A DNA stretch of 58,119 nucleotides from a virus (lineage: Duplodnaviria > Caudoviricetes), in IMG/VR virus record IMGVR_UViG_3300029319_000051, positions 1-58,119 of that record. One strand, 5' to 3'. Positions within the stretch are counted from its first letter, which is position 1. Every line of letters begins with the position of its first letter. A program made the translations under genes and the position numbers. Below, piece by piece: positions 5,135 through 49,361 of this stretch. The notes beneath the pieces are model-generated. The model was given only the letters and a program-made list of their open reading frames with translations. It did not search any database and had not been told where the DNA came from.

Positions 5135-5614
5135 ATGAAGCTGTCAAAAAATCTGTCACTCGCAGAGGTGACCAAAAGCATCACGGCTAAACGCCTTGGT
5201 ATAGACAACACACCAGATGAGTGGGTTACAGAGAATCTCAAAAAGGTTGCAGAGCACATTTTTCAACCTGTGCGCGACCATTTCGGAAAGCCTATATACG
5301 TGTCGAGCGGCTATCGTTCGGCTGATCTCAATGTTGCGATCGGGGGTTCGAAGCGTAGTCAGCATGTGGAAGGCAGAGCACTCGATCTTGATGGTGACGT
5401 ATACGGACGTGTGTCAAACAGTGACATCTTCCGCTACATACTCAACAATCTTACGTTTGATCAACTCATTTGGGAGTTTGGTGATGAAGATAATCCTGAT
5501 TGGGTTCACGTTTCTTTCGTTCATGATGGTGTTAATCGTGGTAGGTGCCTCAAAGCTTGTCGTGACGATAAGGGAAAGGTGTACTACGAAGTGATGTTTG
5601 GCAAAGGATTGTAA
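5135..5614 (+). CDS. Endolysin, peptidase M15 family (Zn peptidase)
   Basis: SSGYRS, SQH..G.A.D and WVHVS motifs of M15A-type peptidases. Confidence 0.9.
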   Translation: MKLSKNLSLAEVTKSITAKRLGIDNTPDEWVTENLKKVAEHIFQPVRDHFGKPIYVSSGYRSADLNVAIGGSKRSQHVEGRALDLDGDVYGRVSNSDIFRYILNNLTFDQLIWEFGDEDNPDWVHVSFVHDGVNRGRCLKACRDDKGKVYYEVMFGKGL

Positions 5615-34987: not shown

Positions 34988-36659
34988 CTTATTTGCTGGG
35001 GCTCCCCTACCTGGTCGCTTTGATGAAGTTCAGCAAGCAGATCTTTCTCAAGTTACCACTACGTTTAGGGCTATGGACATTCGGGACAAAGAAGCTGCCC
35101 GAAGATTTGAGAGGGCTGAAGACATGCGTCGTGAAGACCTGGATAAAATTGCTGGGTTTGATATATCTAGCCTTGGTCAGATGGGATCTGAAATTTTTCA
35201 AGTTGACGCTGAAGCTCTTGCTGAACAAATAAAAAACGGAGAGCTTGACCCTACTGAAGCTAGAGCCGCAATAACAAAGCTTACTTCTGATTACGGTCAA
35301 TACAAAGCTCATGGCGACGCCATGTTGGAGCGCAGCACCTACGCTAAAAATGTGGCTACGGATGCAAAAGCAAGACAAGCTCACAATGATGGTCTTGCAG
35401 TAGGCTATCAAACCACTTATGGTGTTGATGATTACGGCATTCAAAAAAACCTATCTATGAACCAACTTTTTTTGCCAGGCAGTGCGAAAAAAGGAAGAGA
35501 TGGTAATTGGACCGTTATAGACCCCAACACAAATCAAAGAGTTCCTATAACGCAGGTTACTGGGTATGCAAATCCAAACCACTTTTACAGATTTGGTGAG
35601 GAAAAAATTGATGTGGGTGATTTGCAGACTAGCGCCATGAGTGAGCCCATACAAAACAGAATACTTAAAAGAGGTAACAACGTATTTTATGAGGAAAACG
35701 CCATCATAGAGTATGACACTCTGACTGAAAACAGCAATAAAACAGGCCAAACTTTAAGACTTCAAATACTTGAAGACTATCAAGATGAGTCTGGCAAAAG
35801 CACATATTTTAACGAGTCTGATGAGCAAAGAGCGTTTCAATTTGGGCCCAATGGATACAACAGAATCCAAGGCATTCAAAACGAAGACGAAAAAATAAGG
35901 CTTCAACAAGCTTGGTTAAGTGTGTGGGGACCTCCTGGACAAAACAGAACGAAAGACGAGTCTGGAAATATTGTTGCAGAAGGTAGCGGTTGGGATCTTT
36001 TAAATTCAGAAAGATCTAAGTTTGTTGAGTATGCAAGAACTAAGACCTCTACCGATGAGCTTATGAAGAGAGAAAGATTGCGAACCTCTCGAACATCTGG
36101 CGATGGAACTAGTGTGGAAGATCTTTATGGGTTTGAAGAAACCATAGAAGATGTTGCTGCTGGCATGGGTCCTCAGCCAGAAACTGCTATGTCTTATGGT
36201 ATGACTACAATAAAAACACCCATACAAGTAGAGGCTAGTAGCTTTGGCGATGGTGGAGATTATGAAATACACGCCTTTGGAGTTGACCCAAGAAATGGAA
36301 ACATTACAGCCAGAGTGTTTGATGATGTCAACATAACACTACACCAGTATACTGATGAAAACGGATCTGTGTTGTTTGCAACATCAGCTCAAGAGGCGAA
36401 TGCACTAGCTAAAGAAAAAGGTGGCATTTACGAGGGTAAAACATCAAAAGTTAAAAACCCCAACCCGCCACAAAGAACAATAGTTATATCTCCTGGCAAT
36501 CAAACCTTTGGTAACGAAGTTTACAATCGTATATTTGGTGTTGACCCCAAAACGGGAGGCCCAACGAATGCAACAGCAATTGAGCTTTTGAATGCTCACA
36601 AACAAAAAGCCAATAGAATGGTTGCTCAAGATGCTGGAATACCCATACCCAATCAATAA
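34980..36659 (+). CDS. Ejection/internal virion protein 2
   Basis: 559 aa, between ejection protein 1 and the giant protein; function inferred from position. Confidence 0.6.
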   Translation: MSNLFAGAPLPGRFDEVQQADLSQVTTTFRAMDIRDKEAARRFERAEDMRREDLDKIAGFDISSLGQMGSEIFQVDAEALAEQIKNGELDPTEARAAITKLTSDYGQYKAHGDAMLERSTYAKNVATDAKARQAHNDGLAVGYQTTYGVDDYGIQKNLSMNQLFLPGSAKKGRDGNWTVIDPNTNQRVPITQVTGYANPNHFYRFGEEKIDVGDLQTSAMSEPIQNRILKRGNNVFYEENAIIEYDTLTENSNKTGQTLRLQILEDYQDESGKSTYFNESDEQRAFQFGPNGYNRIQGIQNEDEKIRLQQAWLSVWGPPGQNRTKDESGNIVAEGSGWDLLNSERSKFVEYARTKTSTDELMKRERLRTSRTSGDGTSVEDLYGFEETIEDVAAGMGPQPETAMSYGMTTIKTPIQVEASSFGDGGDYEIHAFGVDPRNGNITARVFDDVNITLHQYTDENGSVLFATSAQEANALAKEKGGIYEGKTSKVKNPNPPQRTIVISPGNQTFGNEVYNRIFGVDPKTGGPTNATAIELLNAHKQKANRMVAQDAGIPIPNQ

Positions 36660-39600
36660 TGAACGGAGAAGATCTTACACAAGTAGGCGCTGAGGTTTCA
36701 GACATTGAAAAGAGCATTGACCTCCTGTCAGAAAAAGGATATGACTCCAATAGGATCATGGAGGTCATGTCCTCTGTTGGCTATGACTCAAATCAGGTTT
36801 ACAATGAGTTCGTTCGTCGTCACGAAGATGAGCGCCAGAGAATGTTGGAGGAGAAAGAGAGAGCAGACGCTTTGTTTCAGCAACAGCGTGACGCATACGA
36901 CGCGCTATTAAAAAAAAAAGACTTACCATCAGAACAAGATGGGGAGTCCTTGGATTTAGATCCCCAATTACCTGGAGCCCAAGCATCGGTAGCTGACCCA
37001 CGTTTGTTCGAGATTCGTCAGAACGACGAGTTGGCAATGAATGGTGTGACAAACAGCAGGATTGGCAATGAGCTTGTCCGTGCTGTAAGTTTCAATGACT
37101 CTCAGGCAGTAACTAAAGCGCTTGAAAGCGCTCAGTCAAATGGACTTCTTACTGAATTTTCTATCGAAGACGAGTACGATCAGGAAACCCTGCAAAAGAT
37201 ACAAGGTGCTGGTAATGAGATGATTGGCTTTGGAAAGAGCAGCTATCAGCTGGCTCTTAGCAAGGCCAACGAGATTAATAAGTCTTTAGGTATAGACATT
37301 GAGTACGACATCAACAGTGAAACAGACTTTGGTTTGTTCCTAAGAGAGTCTGTAGAAAGAGTAGAAAGGAACGAGGAGGACTTTAACAAGAGGACAGAGC
37401 AGTTTATCCAGCAGATCCCAGGCATGAGAGATGAGGAGGTGGGATTTGGCAGCATCCTTCTTGATGACTTAAGTTTTTCTAACATGGTGTCTGGCATGGC
37501 AGCATTTCAGGCTGATGTGTTCGGAGAGGGGGCTGGTCTTAAGAGTCTTTATGGGGATTCAGTAACCTCAGAGTACTATCAGGAAAAGATTAGAAAAACA
37601 AATCAGGCCAACGCCCAGCGCGAAAAGCTTTTTTACGAAGATCTTGAGGTGGCTGAAGAGGCATACTCTATGGGCAGCACAGAAAGGGTTGCGGCTGCAT
37701 GGAGAGGGGACATATCAATGGGTGATTACCTAGCTGCTACTACCGTAGAAACCAGCAGAGTAATGGTCGATGGCATAAAGTCTATTGCAGAGTATATAAT
37801 AAACCCAGCTGTTTTAGCTATTGATGTGTTTGGAGAAAGCTATGGAAACACTAGGACTTACTCTCCACATCTGAGCATTACTGAAGCGGCTGTTACATCT
37901 GCTGCCAAGGCTACGACTGAAGTCGTAATGGAAAGGATTATGATGGGCCTTGGTGTCGGCGCTGAAGCCCTTGTGAAAGGGTCTCTAAAAACTGCAAAGC
38001 AAACACTAAGAGGATCAAAACGTGCAGCTATAGATAAGGCTAGAAAAGACCTTGCTGGTAAGCTGACAGGTAGTTTGTCTGGTAAAATTATTGGAAACAC
38101 CGCTATTGAAGGGCTTGAAGAGGGGTTGGTAGAGATAACAAACTGGGCTATTGATGCTGCCGACAATGTCGCAATGGGCAGAAATGTTAAAGACCTAAAC
38201 TTCAGCGAAGTAGGTGATGCCTTCTTTGCTGGTATGGCTGGTGGGTTTGGTCCAATCGCCGTTACACAGCTGCCTTCTCACAGGGGGCACATTAAGTTTA
38301 TGTCCGACAGGTCTAACGTAATGAAGGCGATAGCCGAGCTTAGAAAGGACTATGAAGCTGAAACAGACCCCGTTAGAAAAAAAGAGCTAGAAAAAGACTT
38401 GATGAATGCAATGGTTAGATCCAATGTGATCACCAATGCAGAAAACAAAATGTACGAGGACTTTTCTCCAGAAGAGAAGAGGACAGTCATCATGTACAAT
38501 CAGGAAATATCTAATCTTCAACAGACTCTAGACACAGGCAAGTACTGGAACGGAGACAAGGTTACTTCTGAAGAGCGTACTGCTCTTGAAGCTAGGCTTA
38601 AGAACGCCATAGATAGGAAGGCTAAGATTGAAGCTGGTGTAGAGGCAAGACAGGGTGAGGAACAGTCTAAGGAAGAGGTTGAAACACCCCCAACTGTAGA
38701 GAACGCAGCAGAGACCAAGGCAGAAACAAAGACAAGGAAGGTGCCTAAGTCTGAAAAAGATATCCATAAGGATATCCCTGTCCCTACAGAGAAGGCACCT
38801 CAGGGTCAAGAGCAGGAGGCTGTTCAGCTTTCTTTGTTTGATGAGAACACTGTTCTCGATCCAGTAGCTGAGCCTGAAACTCAGCCAGAAGTACAAGAGG
38901 AAGCTCCTGTACAGGAAGAAGTAAAGACAGAGGCCGAGCAAGAAGCAGACAAACCAGTAGAGGAGCAAGGCTTCTTTGAGCTAAATGCAGAAGAAGCTCA
39001 GAAGTTTGACCTCAAGGACACTAAAGTAGTCGGTGATGGTGCTGGCCAAATATCTATACCCCTTGCCTCTAAAATAAACAAAGTCATTGATGCCTTTGGG
39101 AAAAGGGGACTTAAGGGTATCAAGGTTAGATACCACAGAAACACAGAGTCGTTGAGAAATGTTGACCCCGAGGTGGCTCAACAACTTGACCAAATTGAGT
39201 TGCAGAACCAGCAGAGTGGAAAAAAAGCAAGACTTGGTGGGTATTTTTTAAACGGTACGATTCACCTACACAAAGACAGCGATGCTCTTGATGTGCTAGA
39301 GGAGTTTAGTCACGGGGTGCTGAAAGATGTTATCGGAAAGGAAGCTAAGTCTAGAGAAAGACTTTACAATGAGCTGGTTGATATGTCTAAGGGCAAGTCA
39401 AAAGCTGCTCAGGAAGTAAAGAAAGTTCTTGATGAAAGAGAGAGGCTTTATAAGGGTGTGAGTGATGCTACAATGCAAGAAGAGTCTATTGTTTTCTTCT
39501 TGGTAAACTACGCTCAAAATCCTTCTTCGTTCTCCTCCTTAAAGTCTAGGATAAAGTCTGCTTTGAACAGATTTTTTAAAAGCGTCGGAGCTAAAAGCAA

Positions 39601-42600
39601 CATTATAAAAACCGACGACTCGCTATTGAGACTTGCCAACAAGTTTAGAGATGCAGCACAGGGAGTAGAAACTCAAGTACAACCTGAGACACGGGCAGAA
39701 ACAGAGCCTGAAACAGAAGTAGCTCAAGAAACAGTAACTCCTGACAAGGACCCTGCCGACATGACCCCTGAAGAGCTTGAGGCATACACCAATCAGCTTG
39801 TTGAGGGGGCCGAGGGGGTGGAAACCTCACAGGACGACGCTCTATCTAAAAGCACCCAAGACATTGATGTGACACCTGGCATGGCGTCAATTAGGCAAAA
39901 GCAGAACTTTAACTACTTAAAAGACACTGAGATATTCTACACTCACTATCCAACTCTTGGTGCTGGCGACTTACCCTTGACTAGCAGCAGATACACTACG
40001 TACAGTGTAGAGAAGTCAGTAAAGGTAAATGACTACTTTCACTTCAGGAACTGGTACAACTATCAAACTGGCAATCAAGTGTCTAGAAGAATTGCCAACA
40101 TGTACTTTATCAAAGATGGTAAAAAGTACAATGTTAATCCGCCAAGACCAAAGGTTGATCGGAATGGCAAGATAGTCCCTATGGATCTGCCGTTAACTTT
40201 TAGGCAGAGACAAAGACAAGAGTCTTTTCAAAAAGCAAAAGATTCTAAAAATATTCTTGCCAGAGTAAAAGACATCAATGACACCAACAGGAAGCTATTT
40301 GACACAATTCCTTGGAATGGGCTTGTAAATGCCAGGGAGTTTGCGCCAGCAACCAAGCCTCTATATGAGATGACTGCAAATGACAAGTACGTTGCTGCAG
40401 TTATTGAGCAAAAAAACTTGCAGGCTGCCATTGATATGGGGCTTACAAAAGAAGAGGTACAAGAGAGAGTTAACAAGCCAGACCGTGGCGGAGTCACAGG
40501 GAAGCTTAATAGGCTTATGGATGGTGACATTGTAAATGCTACTGGACTAGTGCCATTTGAGCAGGCAGAGACTGGAGACACCGTAGGTATGTTTGCTCTT
40601 AGAGACCTCAATGTTGAAAAGTTAGGTAAGCCCGATCACGTGGCGTCTAATGAAGAGCTTGCTGATTTAAAAGAGGGTAATATCGAAAGAATAAAGAATT
40701 TATTTATGAAGTTCTTCGGGTATGATAGAAGCATGCCCAATCAAGAAAAAGGAATTACCTCTGGCATTAGAGCGGTTCAGAGGCTGGACGAGACAGACAT
40801 TCCTGAACTCAAAGAAGGGGAAAGAGTTTTATCTACCCACGTCAGCTTTAGTCACGCCCAAAAAGGCATAGAGGCATATAGAAAAGAAGCTCAGGCACGC
40901 TACAGACAAGACAACAGTGTAACCTCTGGAGAGTTTGGGGCTGGATTTACTGTGCTTCTCCCCGAAGCCACAAGAGGCAACCCAGATGTCGTTAAAGCGT
41001 ACTTAAATGGCCTTTTGGCAAGGTCTAAAGATAGGGAGGCTGGTTTGCCTGGTCCTGCATTGTACAATAAGTTTACTTCAACAGGGAAGAGACTTATTAG
41101 ATCAATGGTAAAACAAGCTGAGGCTGAACAATACGAGGGGTTGTCTCCAGAAACCGCAAGGTTATTTTCTTCACCTGAATTTGATCGCCCTGTTACAACT
41201 GAAAAACAGTTTCAAGAAATAATAGATGTAGCAATCAATTTTAACGAAAAGCTTCCAGATCAATTTGAGGCCAGAAAAAGTCTATTTTCAGAGGATCTTT
41301 TGGAAGAATTTTTGGGGCATGAATCTTATGAGATGGCAAGAGAAATACCCCACCCGTCTCTTAAAATGGACGACCAAATAGCAGAGTATTTTAACGACCC
41401 GTCTCTTAGCAATCAAGCTGCAGGCACTCTTATAGGATACAAAACTTTTTCCTACGAAGTAGAGGTAGTAGAAGGCGCTAAAGCAAGATCAAAAGGCGGA
41501 GAAGAGTTTGTTGACTTTAAAGAAGGAACTATAAGAGCCGTCAAACTAGATGGTTATGGTTTTGCAGGGGCTATTGTTGTCAAGGGAGAGGTTAGCGATT
41601 TAGAGGTTTTGAAGGAGCAATACACTCTTGATAGACTAGACCCAGATCAGTTTAAAGATCCAGAGCTAGTCCCCACCACTGAGCCCGATCCAGAAACAGG
41701 GATAAGGGTGGCCAAAGACACCAAAACTCCGTACCAAAGAATGGAGGAGCGCAACAGATATAGTCGGATTGAGATGAACTCAGTCAGAAATGACTATGAT
41801 GGGAACGCATCTATCAGAGAGGGAAGAGGCCTTACGTCTATTCGTACTGACCAAGGTACATTCGAACTGTCGGATCTCAACTCTTATCAAGAGTGGAGAA
41901 ACAAGTGGATCAAAAGGCTTCAAGACAAATACGTAGACATCTTCAAAATACAGCAGGATGTAGAGACTGCTAGAGGCAAAATAGATAGAACTCAAGACTT
42001 CCGCATGGCCGAAGAGCTCATGTACGGTAAGGCAGCAGAGGATCTGCGTAAACTTGACGAGAAGGTTGACGGTATTACAAGTGAGCTCAAAGCAAACAAG
42101 ATATCTCCAAGTGAAATATCAGAATACCTATATGCTTTACATGCTCCTGAACGAAACCAGCTGATTAGTGAAAGGTCTGAAGGTAAAATTACTGAGGGAT
42201 CTGGAATGAGCAATGCTAGGGCTAAAGAGATTATAAACGCTATCCCATCAGGCAAACAAAAGGCCTACGACAACATCGTCAAGATGGTTAGAGAGATTCA
42301 GCAGGACACTAGAGACACGATGGTAAACTTTGGCCTTGAGTCAAAAGAAACCATTGACGCATTTGAGGCTATGTATGAAAACTACACGCCTCTATCTGGT
42401 ATCGCAACAGATGAAGAAACGTCATTTGATTCTTCTTACCCAACGGGTGGGGCTGGACTTTCTGTGTTTGGGCCAACCACCAAAAGGGCGGAGGGCAGAA
42501 AGACAGAGGCAACAGATATACTAGCCCAGGTAATCGCTCAAAACGCTTCGATACATATTAAGTCAAGAACCAATGAGGCTCTTCAATCTTTGTACAACTT

Positions 42601-44509
42601 GGTTGAACAAAACCCCAACCCAAAGGTTTGGAGAATTGTTGATGCAGAAAAAGCAAGACAACAAGACCCTCATTCTGTTGGTGTTAGAGTGGGCGGTGAG
42701 CAGAAGTTTATTAGATTCAAGGACGCCAGCCATGCTGAGACACTAAGGAATCTAAATCTGCCAGCCACAACCACCTTAATTAGAGTTCTTCGAGCTCCAT
42801 CTAACTGGTTGAGAAGGTCGTTTACAACTTTGAACCCAGAGTTCATGGTGTCTAATTTCTCTAGAGATATCCAAGCCGCCCTGTTCAACGCTGCGGCGGA
42901 GGCTGATATCCCAGGAGGACTTGTAGAAGGCAATGCAATTATTGCTGACATGATTAAGACGGTGCCAGCAACTCTGAAAGCCTTGACTAGAGATGAGGTG
43001 GGGGCTTTGAAAAAAGTTTTTAAAGACAACCCAGAGATAGAGCGGTACTACAACGACTTCAGAGAAGACGGGGGAAAGACGGGTTGGAGCTATGCAAAGC
43101 CATTGTCAGACATAGCTAAAGACCTAGAAGGCAAGACTGGTGAGAAGACTAGGATGCAAGAAATTCTAGGCAAGGGGAAAAACTTCCTTGATACTATTGA
43201 GGGAGTAAATGATGCCTTTGAAAATAGCATCAGGCTGTCAGCATACATTGCTGCAAGAGAAAAGGGTGTAGGCAGGGAGAAGGCAGCACAGCTGGCAAAG
43301 AACATTACCGTGAACTTTAACAAGTCTGGCGAATATGGACAGGCTATCAATGCGGCATATTTGTTTTTCAATGCTTCTGTTCAGGGAACTGCAAGATTAG
43401 GTAAATCCTTGCTCACTTTCAAGGAGCCAACATATCCAGACGGAAGCCGAAGAAGACCCATAGACAGAATAAACAACGCACAGAAGATGGCAGCTGCCCT
43501 CACTGTGTTTAATGGTCTTCTCACAATGTTGGGTCTCGCTATGTCTGGAGAGGATGAAGATGGAGAGCTTTACTACAACAAGATCCCCGCTTACATAAAA
43601 GAAAGAAACCTCATAATCATGAGGCCTGATGGCGAAAACTACTACAAAATTCCTATGCCTTATGGGTTTAGCGTCTTTGCTAACCTAGGTAACCTATCTG
43701 TAGAGGTCGGTGCGGGACACAAAGAAATAGACGAGGCGATGTTCCAAATGATATCGTCAACCATAAACTCCTTCTCTCCAGTAAGTTTTGGTCAGTCTGA
43801 AGATTTGATTACAAAAGTTGGAAAAACAATAACTCCAACATTCTTTACGCCAATTATAGACTATATGGCCAACGAAACATACTTTGGCACTCCAGTTAGA
43901 GCCAAGAACTTGCCGTATGGTTTGCAAAAGCCTGAGTCATCATTGTCATTTAGATCTCCAGAATCTGTTCAACAGTTTTTTAGGTGGTTGAATGAAGCTA
44001 GTGGTGGATCAACAGAAGTCAAGGGGGATATAGATATCAACCCAGATGCTTACTGGTACTTCTTCGAATACTTTATTGGAGGTGCGGGTAAGTTTGTTAC
44101 AAGAACAGGAGAGGCTACCAGAAGGTTGGCAGCTAAGGCTTCCGACACTGACGTGCAGATAGAGGCAAATGATATTCCATTCTTGAGGCTGCTTTACGGT
44201 GAGCCATCTAAGTTCATGGACGTTGAGGACTACAGAAAGAGACGCGATATAATTAAGTCCCTGAGGTCTGAGATGAAAGCGGGCAGGAGAGACGACCCAG
44301 GAAGATATGATGGTGTTCTCCTCCTAAATCAAAGGCTTGACTTCTTTGACAAGCAACTTAAAAATATCAGGGCTCAAAAAAGAAAGGCCTTGAACATAAA
44401 GGATTACGCACAGAGAACAATAAGGATAGAGGAGTTAAGAGAAAAAGAAAGAAGTATAGTTATGAACTTTAATGAGCAATATGAAAAACTCAGAGGGAAA
44501 AAAGATTAA
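36659..44509 (+). CDS. Giant ejection/polyvalent protein with a C-terminal LPD38-like domain
   Basis: 2616 aa; NP.F...NF.RD, ITVNFN..G, YLFFNASVQG and IP.YIKERN...YKIPMPYG motifs; degenerate zincin-like LEEFSH. Confidence 0.75.
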   Translation: MNGEDLTQVGAEVSDIEKSIDLLSEKGYDSNRIMEVMSSVGYDSNQVYNEFVRRHEDERQRMLEEKERADALFQQQRDAYDALLKKKDLPSEQDGESLDLDPQLPGAQASVADPRLFEIRQNDELAMNGVTNSRIGNELVRAVSFNDSQAVTKALESAQSNGLLTEFSIEDEYDQETLQKIQGAGNEMIGFGKSSYQLALSKANEINKSLGIDIEYDINSETDFGLFLRESVERVERNEEDFNKRTEQFIQQIPGMRDEEVGFGSILLDDLSFSNMVSGMAAFQADVFGEGAGLKSLYGDSVTSEYYQEKIRKTNQANAQREKLFYEDLEVAEEAYSMGSTERVAAAWRGDISMGDYLAATTVETSRVMVDGIKSIAEYIINPAVLAIDVFGESYGNTRTYSPHLSITEAAVTSAAKATTEVVMERIMMGLGVGAEALVKGSLKTAKQTLRGSKRAAIDKARKDLAGKLTGSLSGKIIGNTAIEGLEEGLVEITNWAIDAADNVAMGRNVKDLNFSEVGDAFFAGMAGGFGPIAVTQLPSHRGHIKFMSDRSNVMKAIAELRKDYEAETDPVRKKELEKDLMNAMVRSNVITNAENKMYEDFSPEEKRTVIMYNQEISNLQQTLDTGKYWNGDKVTSEERTALEARLKNAIDRKAKIEAGVEARQGEEQSKEEVETPPTVENAAETKAETKTRKVPKSEKDIHKDIPVPTEKAPQGQEQEAVQLSLFDENTVLDPVAEPETQPEVQEEAPVQEEVKTEAEQEADKPVEEQGFFELNAEEAQKFDLKDTKVVGDGAGQISIPLASKINKVIDAFGKRGLKGIKVRYHRNTESLRNVDPEVAQQLDQIELQNQQSGKKARLGGYFLNGTIHLHKDSDALDVLEEFSHGVLKDVIGKEAKSRERLYNELVDMSKGKSKAAQEVKKVLDERERLYKGVSDATMQEESIVFFLVNYAQNPSSFSSLKSRIKSALNRFFKSVGAKSNIIKTDDSLLRLANKFRDAAQGVETQVQPETRAETEPETEVAQETVTPDKDPADMTPEELEAYTNQLVEGAEGVETSQDDALSKSTQDIDVTPGMASIRQKQNFNYLKDTEIFYTHYPTLGAGDLPLTSSRYTTYSVEKSVKVNDYFHFRNWYNYQTGNQVSRRIANMYFIKDGKKYNVNPPRPKVDRNGKIVPMDLPLTFRQRQRQESFQKAKDSKNILARVKDINDTNRKLFDTIPWNGLVNAREFAPATKPLYEMTANDKYVAAVIEQKNLQAAIDMGLTKEEVQERVNKPDRGGVTGKLNRLMDGDIVNATGLVPFEQAETGDTVGMFALRDLNVEKLGKPDHVASNEELADLKEGNIERIKNLFMKFFGYDRSMPNQEKGITSGIRAVQRLDETDIPELKEGERVLSTHVSFSHAQKGIEAYRKEAQARYRQDNSVTSGEFGAGFTVLLPEATRGNPDVVKAYLNGLLARSKDREAGLPGPALYNKFTSTGKRLIRSMVKQAEAEQYEGLSPETARLFSSPEFDRPVTTEKQFQEIIDVAINFNEKLPDQFEARKSLFSEDLLEEFLGHESYEMAREIPHPSLKMDDQIAEYFNDPSLSNQAAGTLIGYKTFSYEVEVVEGAKARSKGGEEFVDFKEGTIRAVKLDGYGFAGAIVVKGEVSDLEVLKEQYTLDRLDPDQFKDPELVPTTEPDPETGIRVAKDTKTPYQRMEERNRYSRIEMNSVRNDYDGNASIREGRGLTSIRTDQGTFELSDLNSYQEWRNKWIKRLQDKYVDIFKIQQDVETARGKIDRTQDFRMAEELMYGKAAEDLRKLDEKVDGITSELKANKISPSEISEYLYALHAPERNQLISERSEGKITEGSGMSNARAKEIINAIPSGKQKAYDNIVKMVREIQQDTRDTMVNFGLESKETIDAFEAMYENYTPLSGIATDEETSFDSSYPTGGAGLSVFGPTTKRAEGRKTEATDILAQVIAQNASIHIKSRTNEALQSLYNLVEQNPNPKVWRIVDAEKARQQDPHSVGVRVGGEQKFIRFKDASHAETLRNLNLPATTTLIRVLRAPSNWLRRSFTTLNPEFMVSNFSRDIQAALFNAAAEADIPGGLVEGNAIIADMIKTVPATLKALTRDEVGALKKVFKDNPEIERYYNDFREDGGKTGWSYAKPLSDIAKDLEGKTGEKTRMQEILGKGKNFLDTIEGVNDAFENSIRLSAYIAAREKGVGREKAAQLAKNITVNFNKSGEYGQAINAAYLFFNASVQGTARLGKSLLTFKEPTYPDGSRRRPIDRINNAQKMAAALTVFNGLLTMLGLAMSGEDEDGELYYNKIPAYIKERNLIIMRPDGENYYKIPMPYGFSVFANLGNLSVEVGAGHKEIDEAMFQMISSTINSFSPVSFGQSEDLITKVGKTITPTFFTPIIDYMANETYFGTPVRAKNLPYGLQKPESSLSFRSPESVQQFFRWLNEASGGSTEVKGDIDINPDAYWYFFEYFIGGAGKFVTRTGEATRRLAAKASDTDVQIEANDIPFLRLLYGEPSKFMDVEDYRKRRDIIKSLRSEMKAGRRDDPGRYDGVLLLNQRLDFFDKQLKNIRAQKRKALNIKDYAQRTIRIEELREKERSIVMNFNEQYEKLRGKKD

Positions 44510-44924
44510 AGACACGGGCCTTGGCAAGTGGCTCAAGTCAAAAGCACCTAACGTGCTTGATGTTGTAGGCGATCTGCTGCCTGACAGCGGTGGCCTTGGT
44601 GTGGTCAAAAACCTCATAGACAAAGAGCCCAATATTGATCCAGCTGAAGCCAAAGCTGCCATCGATGCAGAGGTAAAGTTTCAGGAAAATGTCACCGAAA
44701 GATGGAAGGCTGACATGGGGAGCGACGTAAAGTTGGCGAAGCTCATCAGGCCAGTGACACTCATCGCTTTGATGAGCATGTTTATGGTGACCATGGTTGC
44801 CGACAGCATGGACAACTGGCCATTTAACGTAAAAGATTCCTACGTATCTTTGCTTGAAATCCTGATGCTCACTGCTTTCGGTGCGTATTTCGCAGGCAGA
44901 ACCATAGAAAAAGCCAAAAAATAA
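44472..44924 (+). CDS. Holin (3TM GTA-type family)
   Basis: RWKADM.SD..LAKLIRP, hydrophobic helices and AYFAGRTIEK. Confidence 0.8.
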   Translation: MSNMKNSEGKKIKDTGLGKWLKSKAPNVLDVVGDLLPDSGGLGVVKNLIDKEPNIDPAEAKAAIDAEVKFQENVTERWKADMGSDVKLAKLIRPVTLIALMSMFMVTMVADSMDNWPFNVKDSYVSLLEILMLTAFGAYFAGRTIEKAKK

Positions 44925-44925
44925 C

Positions 44926-45057
44926 ATGGAAGAGGACTTCGACGATATCAGCTTTTTGGATCAAGACAAGCTCAAGAAGCAAGAGAAGAAGATTGAAGAC
45001 GGTGAGATCACCTGCAACATCGACAACCCAGAGGATTGCGAGTCATGCAGCGGATAA
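44926..45057 (+). CDS. 43-aa peptide ending in an RNR-alpha-like redox tail (CNIDNPEDCESCSG)
   Basis: Read manually; starts 1 nt after the holin stop and overlaps the next start. Confidence 0.7.
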   Translation: MEEDFDDISFLDQDKLKKQEKKIEDGEITCNIDNPEDCESCSG

Positions 45058-47465
45058 TCTCCTTGCTATTTTTGTTGCCGATGTTGGCTTCGGCCCAAAC
45101 AGGTTGGATAAACTTTGAGTTTCAAGCCGATCAGTACGGGGGTGAGAGCACCTGGGAGATCTATATGGTTGGCTCTGACAGCATATATGCTGCTGGAGGA
45201 CCATACGAGTCAAACTCATACACTGAGCAGCTGATTACCCTGCCAGCTGGTGAGTACAACCTAGTGGTAAACGACGAGTTTGGAGATGGCATTTGTTGCG
45301 AGTTCGGAGAGGGGTGGTTTGGTTTTGAAAACAGCTGCGGAGTCAACACATACGTATATGACTTTGCATCAGAACAGGTAACTGTACCCTTCAACCTATT
45401 GCCATGTCCTCCGCCAGTATCTGGCTGCATGGATGAAGACGCGAACAACTACAACCCACAAGCGTATTTCGACGCGAACAACTGCCTTTATGACGTTACC
45501 TTCAGGCTGGATCTTAATGGACCGCATCCGCCTGAGATAGACATCCCAGAGGTAAACTCATCGGCTAACGCATGGTGCGGGAATTGTTGGCCCATGTCTG
45601 ACGAAGACGGGGATGGCGTTTGGGAGGTCACAGTAGAGATGCCAGAAGGAGAACACCTTTGGAAGTTTTCTGCTGACGAATGGGAGGTTCAGGAATTGCC
45701 AGTAGGCGTTTCTGAGTCTCCTTGTTTTTTGTTCGATGAGTTTGGGTATGTCAACAGAACAATAAACGTGCAGGGGGACATGATGCTGCCTCCATTTTGC
45801 TGGGAAAGCTGTCTGCCCTGTGGTGCTATTCCAGGGTGTACAAATCCTAACGCTAGCAACTGGAGTCCTTGGGCAAACTTTGACAACGGATCGTGTAGTG
45901 GACTTGGGGCTAACTGCCAGCCTTGGGAGACAGAGATTACAACCATTCTTGTTTCAGACAACTATCCTGAAGAGACAAGCTTCAATGTTTACAACGTAAC
46001 GTCAGGCGAAGAGCTGCTGGACGTATCTATCGGGGATGTGTCTCAGCTAGTTGTTGGGGTTCCGATGGCGTTCTCTACATGCGCCACAGTAGGCGATGTT
46101 GTTGAGGTAGAAATATCTGACAGCTTTGGTGACGGACTTGGGGCTTCTCAGTGGGGTGGTCAAGACGGAACAGCACTTGTCGTGGCTTGTGGAGACACTC
46201 TGTGGGAGTTGCCTGAAGCAGACTTCGGATACACTGTGTTTACAGATTTTAACACCCCTGCTTGTATTGGCGTTGAAGATGTGGTGGGGTGCGGAGACCC
46301 AGACTACCTGGAGTACAACCCAGACGCAACGATCCAGCTTGACGTCTTGTGTGAGACTCTCGCTGTGTATGGGTGCGTAGATGATTCATACTTCAACTAC
46401 GATTCACTTGCAAACACAGAAGATGCGATAGACTCTTGTTTTTATACGCTGACGATTACAGACGGTGTTGGAGACGGTTGGTTTGGGAGCTGGCTTGGGA
46501 TTTACCAAGACGGATGGACATCTCCTCAGTACAAAATGGGGCCGAATGACGGAAACGAAGAAACCTTTGATGTGTATCTGTCATCTGAGGAGGAGATAGA
46601 GCTGTTCTTCTTTACGACTCCTCAGTCTCAAAACCAAGTGGCTCAGTGCGGTTTCATGCTTGTGGGCCCAACAGGTGATACCCTCATCGATGTTTCGCAG
46701 TGGAGCATCACACCCTTCCCAAACACATACACGGTAACTCCTTACTGCGGAAACAGCTGCATTCCTTTTGTCTACGGATGCACCGACGATCTCGCACAGA
46801 ACTACAGCTCATCAGCAAACGCAGACGACAACAGCTGCTACTACAACGCTGGATGCACTCAGGCTGGATATTTAGAGTACTACACTCAAGGCTATGAAGC
46901 CGACTACGATGACGGCAGCTGCCTTACCCTAGCGCTGTTCGGTTGCACAGATCCAGATGCCTTGAACTACGATCCAGAAGCCAACGTGGACATTGACTCT
47001 TGCATAGACGTTGTTGAGGGGTGCATGGACATATACGCTTACAACTACAACGAAGACGCAAACACACCGACAAATGATTGCCTGTATGATGCTGGCTGTG
47101 TGACTGGACCAGGAGAGCCATACTGGGCTAACGACTACTGCTACTCATGGGTTATAGAGGTTGACCCGTACTGCTGCGAAACAGCGTGGGATGGAGTGTG
47201 TGAGCAGATGTATGACTACTGCGAGCAGGGAGTAACTTCAGTTGATATTGTTGATAGATCAGAGCTGCACTTTTTCCCAAACCCTACGTCTGGCATCGTA
47301 AACATTCAAGCACCCACAGGCACAAGAGTAAAGGTGTTTGATGCTAGGGGGAGGTTTGTTGCGACAACCACGGGCAGCACCGTAGAGCTACCATCTCCAG
47401 GCCTTTATGTTGTCACAGCTAACTACAAAGGTGTAATCAAGAGAGAAACAATCATAAGACAATGA
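45045..47465 (+). CDS. Secreted Cys-rich repeat protein with a T9SS type A C-terminal sorting domain
   Basis: Signal peptide (...LASA/Q), eight GCxD..A.NY-type repeats, three D.xGDG modules, a CBM-like domain, and terminal FPNPT.G...VFDARGR...PGLYVV. Confidence 0.85.
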   Translation: MQRIISLLFLLPMLASAQTGWINFEFQADQYGGESTWEIYMVGSDSIYAAGGPYESNSYTEQLITLPAGEYNLVVNDEFGDGICCEFGEGWFGFENSCGVNTYVYDFASEQVTVPFNLLPCPPPVSGCMDEDANNYNPQAYFDANNCLYDVTFRLDLNGPHPPEIDIPEVNSSANAWCGNCWPMSDEDGDGVWEVTVEMPEGEHLWKFSADEWEVQELPVGVSESPCFLFDEFGYVNRTINVQGDMMLPPFCWESCLPCGAIPGCTNPNASNWSPWANFDNGSCSGLGANCQPWETEITTILVSDNYPEETSFNVYNVTSGEELLDVSIGDVSQLVVGVPMAFSTCATVGDVVEVEISDSFGDGLGASQWGGQDGTALVVACGDTLWELPEADFGYTVFTDFNTPACIGVEDVVGCGDPDYLEYNPDATIQLDVLCETLAVYGCVDDSYFNYDSLANTEDAIDSCFYTLTITDGVGDGWFGSWLGIYQDGWTSPQYKMGPNDGNEETFDVYLSSEEEIELFFFTTPQSQNQVAQCGFMLVGPTGDTLIDVSQWSITPFPNTYTVTPYCGNSCIPFVYGCTDDLAQNYSSSANADDNSCYYNAGCTQAGYLEYYTQGYEADYDDGSCLTLALFGCTDPDALNYDPEANVDIDSCIDVVEGCMDIYAYNYNEDANTPTNDCLYDAGCVTGPGEPYWANDYCYSWVIEVDPYCCETAWDGVCEQMYDYCEQGVTSVDIVDRSELHFFPNPTSGIVNIQAPTGTRVKVFDARGRFVATTTGSTVELPSPGLYVVTANYKGVIKRETIIRQ

Positions 47466-47665
47466 GAGTTAGAAAGAAGAAAAAAAACAAAGTAGATTAC
47501 AGCACTGCATACGAAGGCGCCATTGGCAAAAGCAGTAGTCGGCAAGCCGCAGAAAAAATGTGGGCTAGCAAGGCTTCTGCTGAAGAAATGAGTCTTGGGT
47601 CAAAGACAACCATGGATCAAGACGGTAATTACATAGTAAGAACTAGACTTTCGTCAAAGGCATGA
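47462..47665 (+). CDS. Small basic protein
   Basis: 67 aa; ATGA overlaps at both ends. Confidence 0.6.
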   Translation: MRVRKKKKNKVDYSTAYEGAIGKSSSRQAAEKMWASKASAEEMSLGSKTTMDQDGNYIVRTRLSSKA

Positions 47666-48708
47666 AACACTTAGCCGCCATAGTTCTTTTTGTTTTGCCT
47701 TTTGTTGCAAACGGCCAAAGCAACTTCTACAAAGAAGTGCTGAGAAGAGCTACGTTTTATGCAGCTGTAAACGGAGGTAACTCTGTATCGGACGAAGATG
47801 TTTTTTCCGTGGCCACAGGACCGCTCACCACTGATGTTGTAGAGACTCCGTTTGATTACTCTCTGACCCTAGGGGTAAGAAAGATTGCAAGGTTTGGTTA
47901 CGAGAACAGAGCCAACGTGTTTTACGACGGCACAGAGAAGACATACGGCGATGCAGCCACCGTAGGTAAGTACGACGGTTTTGAGTTCTTAGCTGAGGCT
48001 GACTGGCGCAGACAGCAGGGTAAAAACTTCTTGGATCAAGATTACTTTGCCAGATACGTCGCAGATAGCTGGGTGGTAAAAACAGAATACCTTCAGGACG
48101 GGTTCGCAGACGTCAGATACTTTGAGGCTTCAGAAAGACTCAGAGTAAAGATTGGTAAAAAGCTGTCGTTCAACGCTGGTGTGGTCCAAAGGATTTCTCA
48201 GCCATACGGGTACGACCCTCTTCAGATATGGTTGTTGGACAACAATCAAATACACTATACAGCACTGGCTCTGGAGCAGGGGTACAGCGTTGATGTAAAC
48301 ACAGGAGAGTTCTTTTCCCCAGATGGAGAGATGGTTGCAAACGATCAGGCGGTATGGGAGCAGGTGGTGATACCTCAGGTGATTGACGAATACGTATCTG
48401 AAAAAAGAGCAGAGCTGGACAACCAGTGGCTTTACTCAGCGGTGTTGGGGTTTGACTTCTACCACTACGAAAAGGACTTTTGGCTGCACTCGTGGGGTAA
48501 CGTGATGCCTTATCACCTTGACACTGGCGATGAATACTCTTACCACAATTTCGTGAACAGCAGTCAGTGGGTAGACTTGGGCTTTGGTTTGGTGTTCGGA
48601 ACTAAGCTTACCAAGAGCTTTGGTATATTTGCAGAGGGCAAATACAACAGATACTGGAACAGAGAGTGGCATGACTTCTCTGTGGGACTCAACTACATAC
48701 TATTGTAA
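47662..48708 (+). CDS. Putative outer-membrane beta-barrel protein
   Basis: Signal peptide (...VANG/Q), aromatic-rich alternating strands, C-terminal FSVGLNY beta-signal-like strand. Confidence 0.7.
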   Translation: MKHLAAIVLFVLPFVANGQSNFYKEVLRRATFYAAVNGGNSVSDEDVFSVATGPLTTDVVETPFDYSLTLGVRKIARFGYENRANVFYDGTEKTYGDAATVGKYDGFEFLAEADWRRQQGKNFLDQDYFARYVADSWVVKTEYLQDGFADVRYFEASERLRVKIGKKLSFNAGVVQRISQPYGYDPLQIWLLDNNQIHYTALALEQGYSVDVNTGEFFSPDGEMVANDQAVWEQVVIPQVIDEYVSEKRAELDNQWLYSAVLGFDFYHYEKDFWLHSWGNVMPYHLDTGDEYSYHNFVNSSQWVDLGFGLVFGTKLTKSFGIFAEGKYNRYWNREWHDFSVGLNYILL

Positions 48709-48992
48709 TGGCACAACAAATTGGAGAAGACACTAAGGTAACGCTCGATCTCAAGACGCTTGGGATGGTGGCGGCAGGGATAGGCACTGTTGTGGCTATG
48801 TGGTTTGCGTTGCAAGCGGACATTGCTGAGGCAAAGGAGCTGCCCCTTCCTGCTGAGCCAGAGATCACGCGCATGGAGTTTGACATGAAAGATCAGCTGG
48901 TTCGCCAAACAATCATGACGACTCAAGAAGATGTGACTGAAATCAAAGAAGATATCAAGCGCATCGAAGAGAAAATAGACCAACTAAAATGA
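48708..48992 (+). CDS. Single-TM coiled-coil membrane protein
   Basis: One hydrophobic helix followed by a heptad-rich C-terminus. Confidence 0.7.
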   Translation: MAQQIGEDTKVTLDLKTLGMVAAGIGTVVAMWFALQADIAEAKELPLPAEPEITRMEFDMKDQLVRQTIMTTQEDVTEIKEDIKRIEEKIDQLK

Positions 48993-48995
48993 CAA

Positions 48996-49361
48996 ATGAA
49001 ACTCATATCAACCCTGTATGTGTGCTTTGCATTATTTCTGGCGGCGGTTTTTGTAACGCCTGCAGAAAATAATCAGGTATGCAGTTCTGGCATTTGTGTT
49101 GTTGAGTTCAACGCGAGCTTCAACGCATCAAACACTGTGCCCTGGATCGAAGATCTAAACGACTGTTATACAAGTCGAGTTGACATTGTGGCCTCTCCTG
49201 AACTGCAAAGAGAGCACAAGATTGTTGTAGTCCCAACCATCGTTGTCTTCAACGAGGGAGAGGAGGTAAAAAGGTTTCAAGCAAACATCATGATGTCAAT
49301 GGAGGCATCAAAAGAAGATGTTCAAGAAGCCATTGATGAGGTAATACTCAACGACTTTTAA
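48996..49361 (+). CDS. Exported thioredoxin-fold protein lacking the canonical CxxC
   Basis: Signal peptide; VVEFNASFN at the WCxxC position; cis-Pro motif VVPTIVVFNEGEEVKRF. Confidence 0.7.
   Translation: MKLISTLYVCFALFLAAVFVTPAENNQVCSSGICVVEFNASFNASNTVPWIEDLNDCYTSRVDIVASPELQREHKIVVVPTIVVFNEGEEVKRFQANIMMSMEASKEDVQEAIDEVILNDF

What the first reader, a model, noticed from the sequence alone, without database searches (positions are those of the whole stretch)
44926..45057. Stand-alone peptide resembling the redox tail of ribonucleotide reductase alpha
Seen: an unannotated 43-aa ORF, MEEDFDDISFLDQDKLKKQEKKIEDGEITCNIDNPEDCESCSG. Established: many class I RNR alpha subunits end in a flexible C-x-I-D-N-P-x-x-C-x-x-C-(S/G)-(G/S) tail whose cysteines shuttle electrons from thioredoxin/glutaredoxin to the active site. 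I recognise no RNR gene in the window. Inference: the peptide could boost host RNR in trans, act as a thioredoxin decoy, or serve as a redox/metal carrier for the adjacent Cys-rich cassette.
Basis: partly seen in the sequence, partly recalled or inferred. Interest (0 to 1): 0.72.

Follow-up and report, generated by a model that had tools for sequence, protein, structure and literature searches.

The report
Free-standing RNR redox-tail peptide in phages
A marine phage that has no ribonucleotide reductase carries a conserved 43-residue gene that is a free-standing copy of the cysteine tail by which the host's reductase is recharged, and similar unannotated peptides sit beside lysis genes in many other phage sequences.

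Summary
The ORF is real (44926..45057, +, 43 aa). It is conserved in at least 138 viral contigs and under purifying selection (pN/pS 0.14 in frame, above 1.4 in the other frames).

The likeness to the RNR alpha tail is significant in an unbiased test. A profile of 28 Bacteroidia NrdA tails, chosen by barrel-domain score alone, ranks this ORF first of 1612 window ORFs (30.1 bits, E 5.5e-8). Both sequences end at the same C-x7-C-x2-C-x2 terminus.

The window is a whole phage record, 94% complete, with no RNR gene.

- **Lysis context.** The gene lies directly after a holin here, and after a holin or an M15 endolysin-type peptidase in 65 of 78 related loci.
- **RNR versus peptide.** Relatives with their own nrdB-nrdA lack the peptide (0 of 14). 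One of 15 peptide-bearing relatives has an RNR fragment.
- **Second family.** A 32-40 aa family shares only the 16-residue tail (134 clusters) and also sits in lysis cassettes.

Best reading (about 0.4): a trans-acting copy of the host NrdA tail that plugs into the thioredoxin-to-RNR electron relay of RNR-less phages. Rivals are a competitor or decoy, or a lysis-linked redox or metal peptide. I found no published description.

The parts
44926..45057 (+). 43-aa peptide gene, a free-standing RNR-alpha-tail homologue
   Evidence: ORF confirmed. Conserved, with pN/pS 0.14. NrdA-tail profile gives 30.1 bits, E 5.5e-8, top of 1612 ORFs.
44926..44961 (+). Acidic N-terminal segment (residues 1-12, MEEDFDDISFLD) with nearly invariant F10, L11 and D12
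   Evidence: Alignment A1. MAFFT places it against the D-A-I-K-F-T-V-D segment of NrdA that follows the YY pair. That placement is an alignment suggestion only; the local profile match does not reach it.
44962..44997 (+). Predicted helix (residues 13-24, QDKLKKQEKKIE), much better conserved than the equivalent variable linker of NrdA tails
   Evidence: AlphaFold2 on A1 gives helix 13-24, with block pLDDT 86 for residues 11-20. Conservation is shown. The NrdA linkers vary in length and sequence.
45004..45054 (+). Tail module (residues 27-43, EITCNIDNPEDCESCSG). Cys codons lie at 45013-45015, 45037-45039 and 45046-45048
   Evidence: 13 of 17 residues are identical to the yeast Rnr1 C-terminus. 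It matches Bacteroidia NrdA tails. It is the only part shared with the second peptide family (hhalign probability 96%, 16 columns).
44472..44924 (+). Context: holin gene directly upstream (stop one base before the peptide ATG)
   Evidence: phrog_3427 holin, E 1.9e-22. A holin homologue ends at most 17 nt upstream of the peptide gene in 31 of 78 related loci.
45045..47465 (+). Context: secreted Cys-rich protein with a weak type IX secretion sorting domain. Its start overlaps the peptide's last codons. Not a conserved neighbour
   Evidence: Por_Secre_tail 22.6 bits, below the cut-off of 27. It is downstream in only 8-10 related loci. In the RNR-bearing relative G019 the holin stop abuts this gene's start, with no peptide gene between.
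5135..5614 (+). Context: M15 peptidase (endolysin type), 39 kb away in this genome. In many relatives the peptide gene sits directly after this gene instead
   Evidence: PF08291, E 6.2e-20. An M15 homologue ends at most 12 nt upstream of the peptide gene in 34 of 78 related loci.

Best explanation
The gene encodes a free-standing copy of the flexible C-terminal redox tail of the host-type (Bacteroidota, eukaryote-like) class Ia RNR alpha subunit. It has an acidic anchor, a short helix and the terminal C-x7-C-x2-C-SG module.

Proposed mechanism, none of it shown here: the peptide is made with the late and lysis genes in a phage that has no RNR of its own. Host thioredoxin or glutaredoxin reduces it, as they reduce the enzyme's own tail. 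Its cysteine pair then enters the active site of host NrdA in trans. That adds a diffusible electron shuttle to the re-reduction half-cycle and supports dNTP supply when phage DNA synthesis peaks.

Shown here: the ORF is real and under selection, it is homologous to the NrdA tail, RNR is absent from this phage, and the peptide is near-exclusive with phage RNR among relatives.

Inferred: which partners it binds, and whether the effect is stimulation rather than blockade.
For: 1. **Homology.** An unbiased NrdA-tail profile gives 30.1 bits, E 5.5e-8, top of 1612 window ORFs, and both sequences end at the C-terminus. The best PDB match is the last 17 residues of yeast Rnr1. 5 of 5 tail-bearing ORFs of about 800 aa that I tested are full RNR alpha subunits.
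2. **Shared conserved positions.** The residues fixed in the peptide (C, I/L, D/E, N, P, E, C, E, C, S/G) are the ones fixed in NrdA tails. That argues for the same partners. Two peptide families with unrelated N-termini share only this module.
3. **Host-type tail.** 25 of 30 barrel-selected Bacteroidia NrdAs carry C-x7-C-x2-C-x2. Among named genomes, endings in SG were seen in Flavobacteriales and in records named only Bacteroidota. The phage's weak type IX secretion sorting domain points to Bacteroidota.
4. **No RNR in this phage**. PF02867 occurs in 1 of 15 long peptide-bearing relatives, as a fragment at a contig end. It occurs in 0 of 15 records bearing the second peptide family.
5. **Relatives with their own RNR lack the peptide.** Relatives of the same phage family (terminase 72-82% identical) that encode nrdB-nrdA lack it in 0 of 14 records. 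The positive control found the peptide in 5 of 5. Five further family members, chosen by terminase alone, are 3 RNR only, 1 peptide only and 1 neither.
6. **Repeated switches.** On the terminase tree the peptide label changes 5 times. In G019 the peptide gene is cleanly absent between holin and the next gene.
7. **Established RNR biochemistry.** The tail cysteine pair re-reduces the active site and is itself reduced by thioredoxins (passages of PMC11903788; PMC4078304).
Against: - The gene sits in lysis cassettes, after a holin or an M15 peptidase in 65 of 78 loci. The second family sits beside amidase, M15, holin and spanin-like genes. A nucleotide-supply role does not predict this. In RNR-bearing relatives nrdAB lies beside the replication module instead.
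- A free peptide must compete with a tethered tail. Tail and substrate binding are mutually exclusive in the active site (passage of PMC11903788), so an excess of free tail could just as well inhibit.
- The exclusion with phage RNR is not statistically secured once relatedness is allowed for. There are only 2 independent pairs on well-supported branches (5 on all branches), and the sign test cannot reach significance.
- Several 'absent' records are incomplete, at 46-81%. Most records were chosen for carrying one of the two traits.
- One record (G005) carries both the peptide and an RNR fragment.
- The peptide's linker helix is far more conserved than NrdA linkers. That implies an extra partner this model does not name.
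- No binding, redox or expression data exist. The only RNA hint is one 151-nt contig in an RNA library that may contain DNA.
Confidence: 0.4

Rival explanations
1. Competitor or decoy. The free tail blocks the relay instead of feeding it. It could occupy the NrdA active-site pocket or tail-docking site, as yeast Sml1 competes with the R1 C-terminal domain. Or it could soak up or trap thioredoxin or glutaredoxin late in infection, shutting down host RNR and other thioredoxin-dependent processes before lysis.
For: - The homology evidence is the same as for the best explanation.
- Tail and substrate compete for one pocket (passage of PMC11903788).
- Precedents exist. Sml1 is described as blocking R1 regeneration (passages of PMC6382339 citing Zhang et al. 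2007). A 135-aa C-terminal fragment of Neurospora UN-24 RNR expressed in yeast forms a non-reducible complex with Rnr1 and is toxic (abstract of PMC3618301).
- Late, lysis-linked expression suits a shut-off function better than a supply function.
- A reductant decoy would harm a phage's own RNR, which would also explain the exclusion with phage nrdAB.
- The strongly conserved helix could supply the extra affinity an inhibitor needs.
Against: - A specific inhibitor of host-type NrdA should coexist happily with a phage RNR whose tail is different (it ends N-C-A-V-C-E-A/G). Yet co-occurrence is rare, 1 of 15 and 0 of 14.
- No benefit is evident for an RNR-less phage in cutting off its only de novo dNTP source.
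- A plain dithiol peptide is a substrate that thioredoxin turns over, not a trap.
- Nothing here measures binding.
Confidence: 0.25
2. Lysis-linked redox or metal peptide. The tail module was borrowed for a job in the lysis cassette. It might hold or deliver zinc for the zinc-dependent endolysins (M15 peptidase, Amidase_2) or mask them by thiolate ligation until release. Or it might act as a small cytoplasmic regulator of the holin, an acidic peptide against the holin's lysine-rich N-terminus. Host RNR would not be the target.
For: - The peptide gene occupies two different genome positions in one phage family, each directly after a lysis gene: holin in 31 and M15 peptidase in 34 of 78 loci. 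These two genes lie 39 kb apart in the window.
- The second family lies next to an Amidase_2 endolysin (phrog_822, E 1.6e-56), M15 peptidase, a holin homologue, small membrane proteins and a lipoprotein with a C-terminal membrane segment.
- Longer relatives add an N-terminal four-cysteine cluster, as metal sites do.
- Downstream neighbours are highly variable, so the upstream lysis gene is the only constant partner.
Against: - It does not explain why the non-cysteine residues of the NrdA tail (N, I/L, D, N, P, E, D, E) are kept in two families.
- It does not explain the exclusion with phage RNR.
- The partners would be four unrelated lysis proteins.
- The ends of lysis cassettes are common sites for accessory genes, so adjacency may reflect insertion or co-expression rather than function (my knowledge, not tested here).
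- I recall no precedent for such a regulator, and none turned up in the RNR-focused paper searches.
Confidence: 0.2
3. Relic or chance ORF: a decaying 3' end of a captured nrdA gene, or a spurious ORF with no function.
For: - It is short and has no Pfam or PHROG family.
- It was clearly derived from an nrdA 3' end.
- Some database entries are frameshifted or fused.
Against: - pN/pS is 0.14 with saturated synonymous sites, against more than 1.4 in the other frames.
- 79 of 80 loci hold the intact motif ORF.
- Single variants are seen on up to 204 contigs.
- Gene packing is tight, and the peptide's upstream region differs from NrdA linkers yet is conserved.
Confidence: 0.03

Closest known systems
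C-terminal redox tail of class Ia RNR alpha (NrdA / eukaryotic R1 'CX2C' tail)
   Same: It has the same terminal motif, C-x-(I/L)-(D/E)-N-P-(E/D)-x-C-x-x-C-(SG/GS), at the very C-terminus. It may also share the preceding aromatic anchor. The tail is disordered or flexible in both (passages of PMC9669993 and PMC11903788).
   Different: The peptide is not attached to an RNR. No barrel domain is found in the genome. Its linker is a conserved helix, not a variable spacer. It is virus-encoded and sits in a lysis cassette.
Yeast Sml1 (and related small disordered RNR regulators)
   Same: Both are small proteins without a stable fold that would act on the large subunit at the step where the C-terminal tail regenerates the active site (passages of PMC6382339 citing Zhang et al. 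2007).
   Different: I neither found nor tested any sequence relation. Sml1 is not a copy of the tail and is a cellular checkpoint target, not a viral gene. I could not read Zhang et al. 2007 itself.
Neurospora UN-24 C-terminal incompatibility domain expressed on its own
   Same: A stand-alone C-terminal piece of an RNR large subunit acts in trans on a full-length RNR large subunit (abstract of PMC3618301).
   Different: That piece is a 135-aa experimental fragment of a fungal allele which forms a toxic non-reducible complex. The peptide here is a natural 43-aa viral gene family whose effect is unknown.
Phage auxiliary nucleotide-metabolism genes (nrdA/nrdB in relatives of this phage)
   Same: The presumed pathway, dNTP supply, is the same. 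Their distribution within one phage family is near-complementary.
   Different: The relatives carry a whole enzyme: nrdB of 327 aa plus nrdA of 548 aa with no ATP cone and a different tail, placed next to the replication genes. The peptide here is only a tail of the host's type.
C-terminal zinc-finger plus cysteine-pair tail of class II RNR
   Same: Longer members of the second peptide family combine a four-cysteine cluster with a terminal cysteine pair. Class II tails are described the same way (passages of PMC9669993; listing and abstract of PMC5704485).
   Different: Sequence likeness to class II tails was not tested. The window's own peptide has no four-cysteine cluster.

Membership tests
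Class I RNR alpha C-terminal redox tail | Cysteine pair (CxxC) within the last six residues, in the tail sequence context | tested here: met
   The peptide ends C-E-S-C-S-G. A profile of 28 barrel-selected NrdA tails aligns to its very end (30.1 bits, E 5.5e-8). The yeast Rnr1 terminus is the best PDB match.
Class I RNR alpha C-terminal redox tail | Part of a polypeptide with the RNR barrel domain (PF02867) | tested here: not met
   The ORF is 43 aa between stops. PF02867 is not found in the whole record. The search for longer relatives gave 4 proteins, none an RNR.
Class I RNR alpha C-terminal redox tail | Is reduced by thioredoxin or glutaredoxin and reduces the active-site disulfide | not testable with these tools
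   This needs enzyme assays. The one complex prediction sent in was not folded.
Split or fragmented nrdA gene | The remainder of nrdA is encoded nearby or elsewhere in the same genome | tested here: not met
   No PF02867 match in the window or in 14 of 15 long relatives. The neighbours are lysis genes.
Thioredoxin / glutaredoxin / NrdH redoxins | Thioredoxin fold of about 75-110 aa with a CxxC at the start of helix 1 | tested here: not met
   No Pfam hit at E up to 1. The model shows one helix and coil. The CxxC is at the extreme C-terminus.
Ribosomally made modified-peptide precursor (lanthipeptide-like leader plus Cys/Ser/Thr core) | Modification enzyme genes next to the precursor gene | tested here: not met
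   The immediate neighbours in 78 loci cluster into holin, M15 peptidase and variable structural or secreted proteins, with no enzyme cluster. The window ORFs I scanned gave no such family, but not every window ORF was scanned.
Phage communication peptide (arbitrium AimP type) | N-terminal signal sequence for export | tested here: not met
   The sequence has no hydrophobic stretch and is strongly acidic throughout. Whether a receptor gene lies nearby was not examined.
Antiholin or lysis regulator | Gene within the lysis cassette | tested here: met
   It lies directly after the holin here. It lies after a holin (31) or an M15 peptidase (34) in 65 of 78 loci.
Antiholin or lysis regulator | Binds the holin or alters lysis timing | not testable with these tools
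   This needs genetics or biochemistry.
Sml1-like RNR inhibitor | Binds the RNR large subunit and competes with its C-terminal domain | not testable with these tools
   No assay is available. The complex prediction was not folded.

The most novel reading that the evidence does not exclude
Phages of Bacteroidota, and perhaps other phages, encode a large, so far undescribed class of 'enzyme-tail' mini-proteins. These are free-standing copies of the RNR alpha redox tail, made together with the lysis genes. They would let an RNR-less virus take direct control of the electron relay from thioredoxin to host RNR, by feeding it, throttling it, or coupling it to the timing of lysis. It would be the first natural case I know of in which a catalytic shuttle arm of an enzyme is supplied in trans as a separate, virus-encoded peptide. 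At least two families would have been built independently on the same 16-residue module.
Probability: 0.55. Interest if true: 0.85.

Novelty: new variant of a known kind. Interest (0 to 1): 0.77.

Why it matters
- **RNR enzymology.** How the alpha tail finds the active site and the reductant is still poorly seen structurally. A natural tail that works as a separate peptide would be a ready-made probe for that step. It would also test directly whether re-reduction limits dNTP supply in vivo.
- **Phage biology.** It would add a new type of auxiliary gene: a 130-nt gene in place of a 2.7-kb nrdAB operon. It is common in ocean viromes; single variants are seen on up to 204 contigs, and the second family has 134 clusters.
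- **Lysis link.** Its constant place in lysis cassettes hints at an unrecognised link between redox or nucleotide metabolism and lysis.
- **Annotation.** These ORFs fall below usual gene-calling and family thresholds. Every named copy seen here is called 'hypothetical protein'.

Tried and rejected
- **Complex prediction.** I sent host-type NrdA residues 1-744 (alignment A2) with the peptide (A1). The tool did not fold the pair, because one chain looks eukaryotic and the other viral.
- **GenBank phages.** There was no DNA match to 40000-48000 and no tblastn match to the peptide. The second-family peptide gave only 2 weak hits in uncultured megaphage records. So there is no cultured relative and no named host.
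- **Fused forms.** The search for longer relatives gave 4 proteins that are read-through or mis-called fusions with neighbouring genes, not RNRs.
- **Biased profile.** An HMM built from tails fetched with a motif-derived DNA pattern scores the peptide at 22-31 bits. That is circular, so I replaced it with the unbiased test.
- **Type-2 selection estimate.** The pN/pS of 0.18 is biased low, because the fetching pattern fixed several residues. I do not use it as evidence.
- **Beta-tail mimicry.** I considered that the acidic N-terminus (E-E-D-F) mimics the NrdB C-terminus. Host-type NrdB ends in F-S-L-D-E-D-F and similar. The likeness is only compositional and lacks the free C-terminus, so I dropped it.
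- **Other peptide classes.** The modified-peptide precursor and arbitrium-like readings were rejected (see membership tests).
- **Expression.** One RNA library holds a 151-nt contig over 44981-45131. The library may contain DNA, and contigs show neither strand nor level.
- **Independent-pairs test.** The test of exclusion between peptide and RNR is underpowered, with 2 starred pairs.
- **Papers.** Zhang et al. 2007 is not held. Supplements were not consulted.
- **Literature.** Searches for a prior description found none, and motif strings gave no hit.

Full report
**1.

The window has an ATG at 44926 and a TAA at 45055-45057, which give the quoted 43-aa peptide. The ORF is wedged between two genes. 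The upstream 150-aa ORF stops at 44924. The probable ATG of the downstream gene (45045) lies inside the peptide's last codons. The window is an entire IMG/VR virus record of 58,119 bases, 94% complete by CheckV, and it holds no RNR barrel domain.

PHROG and Pfam scans show a tailed phage. It has a large terminase, a portal, virion proteins, a primase/helicase, an exonuclease, an M15 peptidase and a holin. Nothing in GenBank phages resembles it at the DNA level, and none encodes the peptide.

**2. It is a real gene**

- The 5.8-billion protein set holds 76 short homologues.
- IMG/VR holds at least 138 encoding contigs, of which 80 loci were kept.
- 79 of those 80 loci carry the intact motif ORF, 78 of them with an ATG start. 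Together with the window they give 46 distinct peptides.
- Over the last 34 codons of 62 distinct nucleotide versions, synonymous sites are nearly saturated (pS 0.81) while pN is 0.12. That gives pN/pS 0.14, against 1.43 and 1.60 in the two other frames.
- C30, C38, C41, P35, E36 and E39 never change, although their codons do.
- Single variants occur on up to 204 contigs, and every name attached to a copy is 'hypothetical protein'.
- AlphaFold2 on the family alignment gives one helix (residues 13-24) and coil elsewhere, with mean pLDDT 75.

**3. It is homologous to the RNR alpha tail**

A profile of the family finds the last 17 residues of yeast Rnr1 as its best match among solved structures, with 13 of 17 identical. 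Alone this is borderline (E 0.065).

A degenerate DNA pattern for the motif retrieved more than 120 places in one-per-species genomes. The 80 listed all lie at the 3' end of ORFs. Apart from those cut by the locus edge and one 77-aa ORF, these are 586-1186 aa long. They come from Bacteroidota, Bdellovibrionota, Actinomycetota and some Proteobacteria. All 5 of the 5 that I tested are ATP-cone or RNR_lgN plus barrel proteins.

Because that set was chosen by the motif, I made an unbiased one. I found RNR alpha genes by PF02867 in 61 genomes of the class that holds one of the Flavobacteriales genomes and took the 30 best-scoring.

- 25 of these 30 end in C-x7-C-x2-C-x2.
- 10 of the 30 have the exact P-E version.

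A profile of 28 of these tails, run from the YY pair to the end, was searched against all 1612 stop-to-stop ORFs of at least 20 aa in the window. It puts the peptide ORF first at 30.1 bits and E 5.5e-8. The next hit has E 0.031. Profile and peptide both end at the last residue.

MAFFT also lines up the peptide's D-D-I-S-F-L-D with the conserved D-A-I-K-F-T-V-D that follows the YY pair of NrdA. So the peptide may correspond to the whole flexible tail. That part rests on the alignment alone.

Among named genomes, endings in SG were seen in Flavobacteriales and in records named only Bacteroidota. The orders Cytophagales, Sphingobacteriales and Chitinophagales, and Bdellovibrionota, end in GS.

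**4. Context**

The upstream gene is a holin (phrog_3427, E 1.9e-22).

Among the 78 related loci with an ATG-started ORF:
- a holin homologue ends at most 17 nt upstream in 31;
- an M15 peptidase gene ends at most 12 nt upstream in 34.

In the window that peptidase (PF08291, E 6.2e-20) lies at 5135-5614, 39 kb from the holin. So the peptide gene occupies two different genome positions in this family, each directly behind a lysis gene.

Downstream genes are highly variable.

**5. Relation to phage-encoded RNR**

One long relative (G005) begins inside the 3' end of an nrdA. That gene belongs to a phage nrdB-nrdA operon. Its NrdA has 548 aa, no ATP cone and a different tail. The operon is found at full length in viral contigs of about 60 kb, next to the replication genes. 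These contigs belong to the same phage family, with terminase 72-82% identical to the window's.

- None of 14 RNR-bearing records has the peptide. The same search finds it in 5 of 5 positive controls.
- 1 of 15 peptide-bearing long records has an RNR match.
- Five more family members, picked by terminase alone, are 3 RNR only, 1 peptide only and 1 neither.
- On a terminase tree of 28 records there are 14 peptide only, 12 RNR only, 1 both and 1 neither. The peptide label changes 5 times, at least 2 of them forced by well-supported branches. Only 2 independent pairs lie on supported branches, so a sign test cannot reach significance.
- In the RNR-bearing genome G019 the holin stop abuts the start of the next gene. 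The peptide gene is therefore a clean insertion or deletion.

Caveats: most records were chosen for carrying one of the traits, several are incomplete, and terminase history need not be genome history.

**6. The phenomenon is wider than this family**

Its 79 newly listed loci gave these matches:
- 22 phage-encoded NrdA C-termini or ORFs cut by the locus edge;
- 11-12 members of the window's family;
- about 40 ORFs of a second family, mostly 32-40 aa and up to 87 aa. They have an acidic aromatic N-terminal motif (consensus F-x-D-F-x-x-E-L-E), then Q-P, then the same tail ending in C-G-S.

Profile-profile comparison aligns the two families only over the 16-residue tail (probability 96%).

A profile of the second family finds 134 representative clusters at E up to 0.001, and 29 at 1e-10, among 1.84 billion proteins. 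Nearly all are 32-123 aa with the match at the very C-terminus. Some longer ones add an N-terminal four-cysteine cluster.

Their neighbours are again lysis genes:
- an Amidase_2 endolysin (phrog_822, E 1.6e-56);
- an M15 peptidase;
- a homologue of the window's holin;
- small membrane proteins;
- a lipoprotein with a C-terminal membrane segment, whose start overlaps the peptide ORF;
- a secreted thioredoxin-like protein that scores below the Pfam threshold.

None of 15 records with this second family holds PF02867, though only 3 of them are at least 90% complete.

In the genome sample, stand-alone forms were essentially absent. One 77-aa ORF of 80 matches was found, and it has nearly the same tail as a full-length NrdA from another record (one difference in the last 40 residues).

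**7. What it most likely does**

Established biochemistry: after each turnover the active-site disulfide of class I RNR is reduced by the cysteine pair on the flexible alpha tail, and thioredoxin or glutaredoxin reduces that pair (passages of PMC4078304, PMC9669993 and PMC11903788).

The peptide keeps not only the cysteines but also the other conserved residues of the host-type tail. Two families built on different N-termini keep the same module. This is what one expects if the module still meets the tail's natural partners, namely the NrdA active site and the reductant.

My best reading (about 0.4) is a trans-acting tail that an RNR-less phage adds to the host relay. The near-exclusion with phage nrdAB fits a helper or a reductant decoy, and fits a specific inhibitor of host NrdA less well.

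Against the helper reading:
- a free tail competes with a tethered one;
- tail and substrate exclude each other in the pocket;
- the gene's steady place in lysis cassettes is unexplained;
- the conserved helix implies a further, unnamed contact.

The rivals are a competitor or decoy (0.25; precedents in Sml1 and the UN-24 fragment), a lysis-linked redox or metal peptide (0.2), and a functionless relic (0.03, nearly excluded).

**8. Known or new**

No Pfam or PHROG family covers either peptide. The ESM Atlas neighbours are unnamed viral clusters.

Full-text searches for RNR tail, phage, mimic and small-protein terms, and for the motif strings themselves, found no description. Subscription papers and supplements were not searchable.

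I file it as a new variant of a known module, the RNR alpha redox tail, in a new genetic form: free-standing, virus-encoded and in the lysis cassette. It is not a member of the RNR alpha family, because the defining barrel domain is absent.

**9. Limits**

No binding, redox, metal or phenotype data exist. The single complex prediction was not folded by the tool. Expression rests on one 151-nt contig in an RNA library that may contain DNA. The host is inferred only from a sub-threshold type IX secretion sorting domain and from the tail type.

Noticed in passing
window 45045-49361: The phage carries a run of envelope-directed genes after the peptide. They are an 806-aa Cys-rich protein with a signal peptide and a sub-threshold type IX secretion sorting domain, a 348-aa protein with a signal peptide, a 94-aa protein, and a 121-aa protein with a weak thioredoxin-family match (20.7 bits, cut-off 23.5) and no hit to any PHROG. 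Homologues occur in RNR-bearing relatives too. A phage-encoded cargo for the host's type IX secretion system would be unusual.
   Followed up: partly
window 26469-32762 and 36659-44509: There are two giant ORFs of 2097 and 2616 aa in a 58-kb phage genome. The second ends just before the holin. Neither was scanned against family libraries.
   Followed up: no
L206 1719-4348 (record G019) and relatives: Members of the same phage family carry a compact nrdB (327 aa) and nrdA (548 aa, no ATP cone, tail ending N-C-A-V-C-E-G). The operon is convergent with the thioredoxin-like late gene. Other members (G030, G033) carry a much more divergent RNR of 632-635 aa.
   Followed up: partly
L081 1-348 (start of record G005): This record, rated 100% complete, begins inside the 3' end of the phage nrdA and also carries the peptide. 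It is the only co-occurrence seen. It may be a contig broken inside nrdA or an assembly chimera.
   Followed up: partly
L403 1382-1477 and 1407-1814: In 14 loci of the second peptide family, the 3' part of the peptide ORF is overlapped out of frame by the start of a lipoprotein gene (lipobox L-S-G-C, C-terminal membrane segment; possibly a spanin). It recalls the overlapping gene pairs of lysis cassettes.
   Followed up: partly
proteins P0103, P0114, P0119, P0128, P0129, P0139, P0144: Longer relatives of the second family carry an N-terminal four-cysteine cluster (C-x-C ... C-x-C or C-x5-C-x4-C-x-C). Several also carry a K-S-K-Y-Y-Y-D-Y-T-R-N-M motif upstream of the tail module.
   Followed up: no
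window 45011-45121, minus strand: The antisense ORF over the tail region is the second-best hit to the NrdA-tail profile (11.7 bits, E 0.031). I read it as a composition artefact of the complementary strand.
   Followed up: no
window 43500-46500: Near-identical DNA occurs in marine metagenome runs of several studies and years, and in runs labelled with a coded organism name (96% of sampled words). Depth rises locally over 44700-45100 in three DNA runs, as expected where related strains share a conserved stretch.
   Followed up: no
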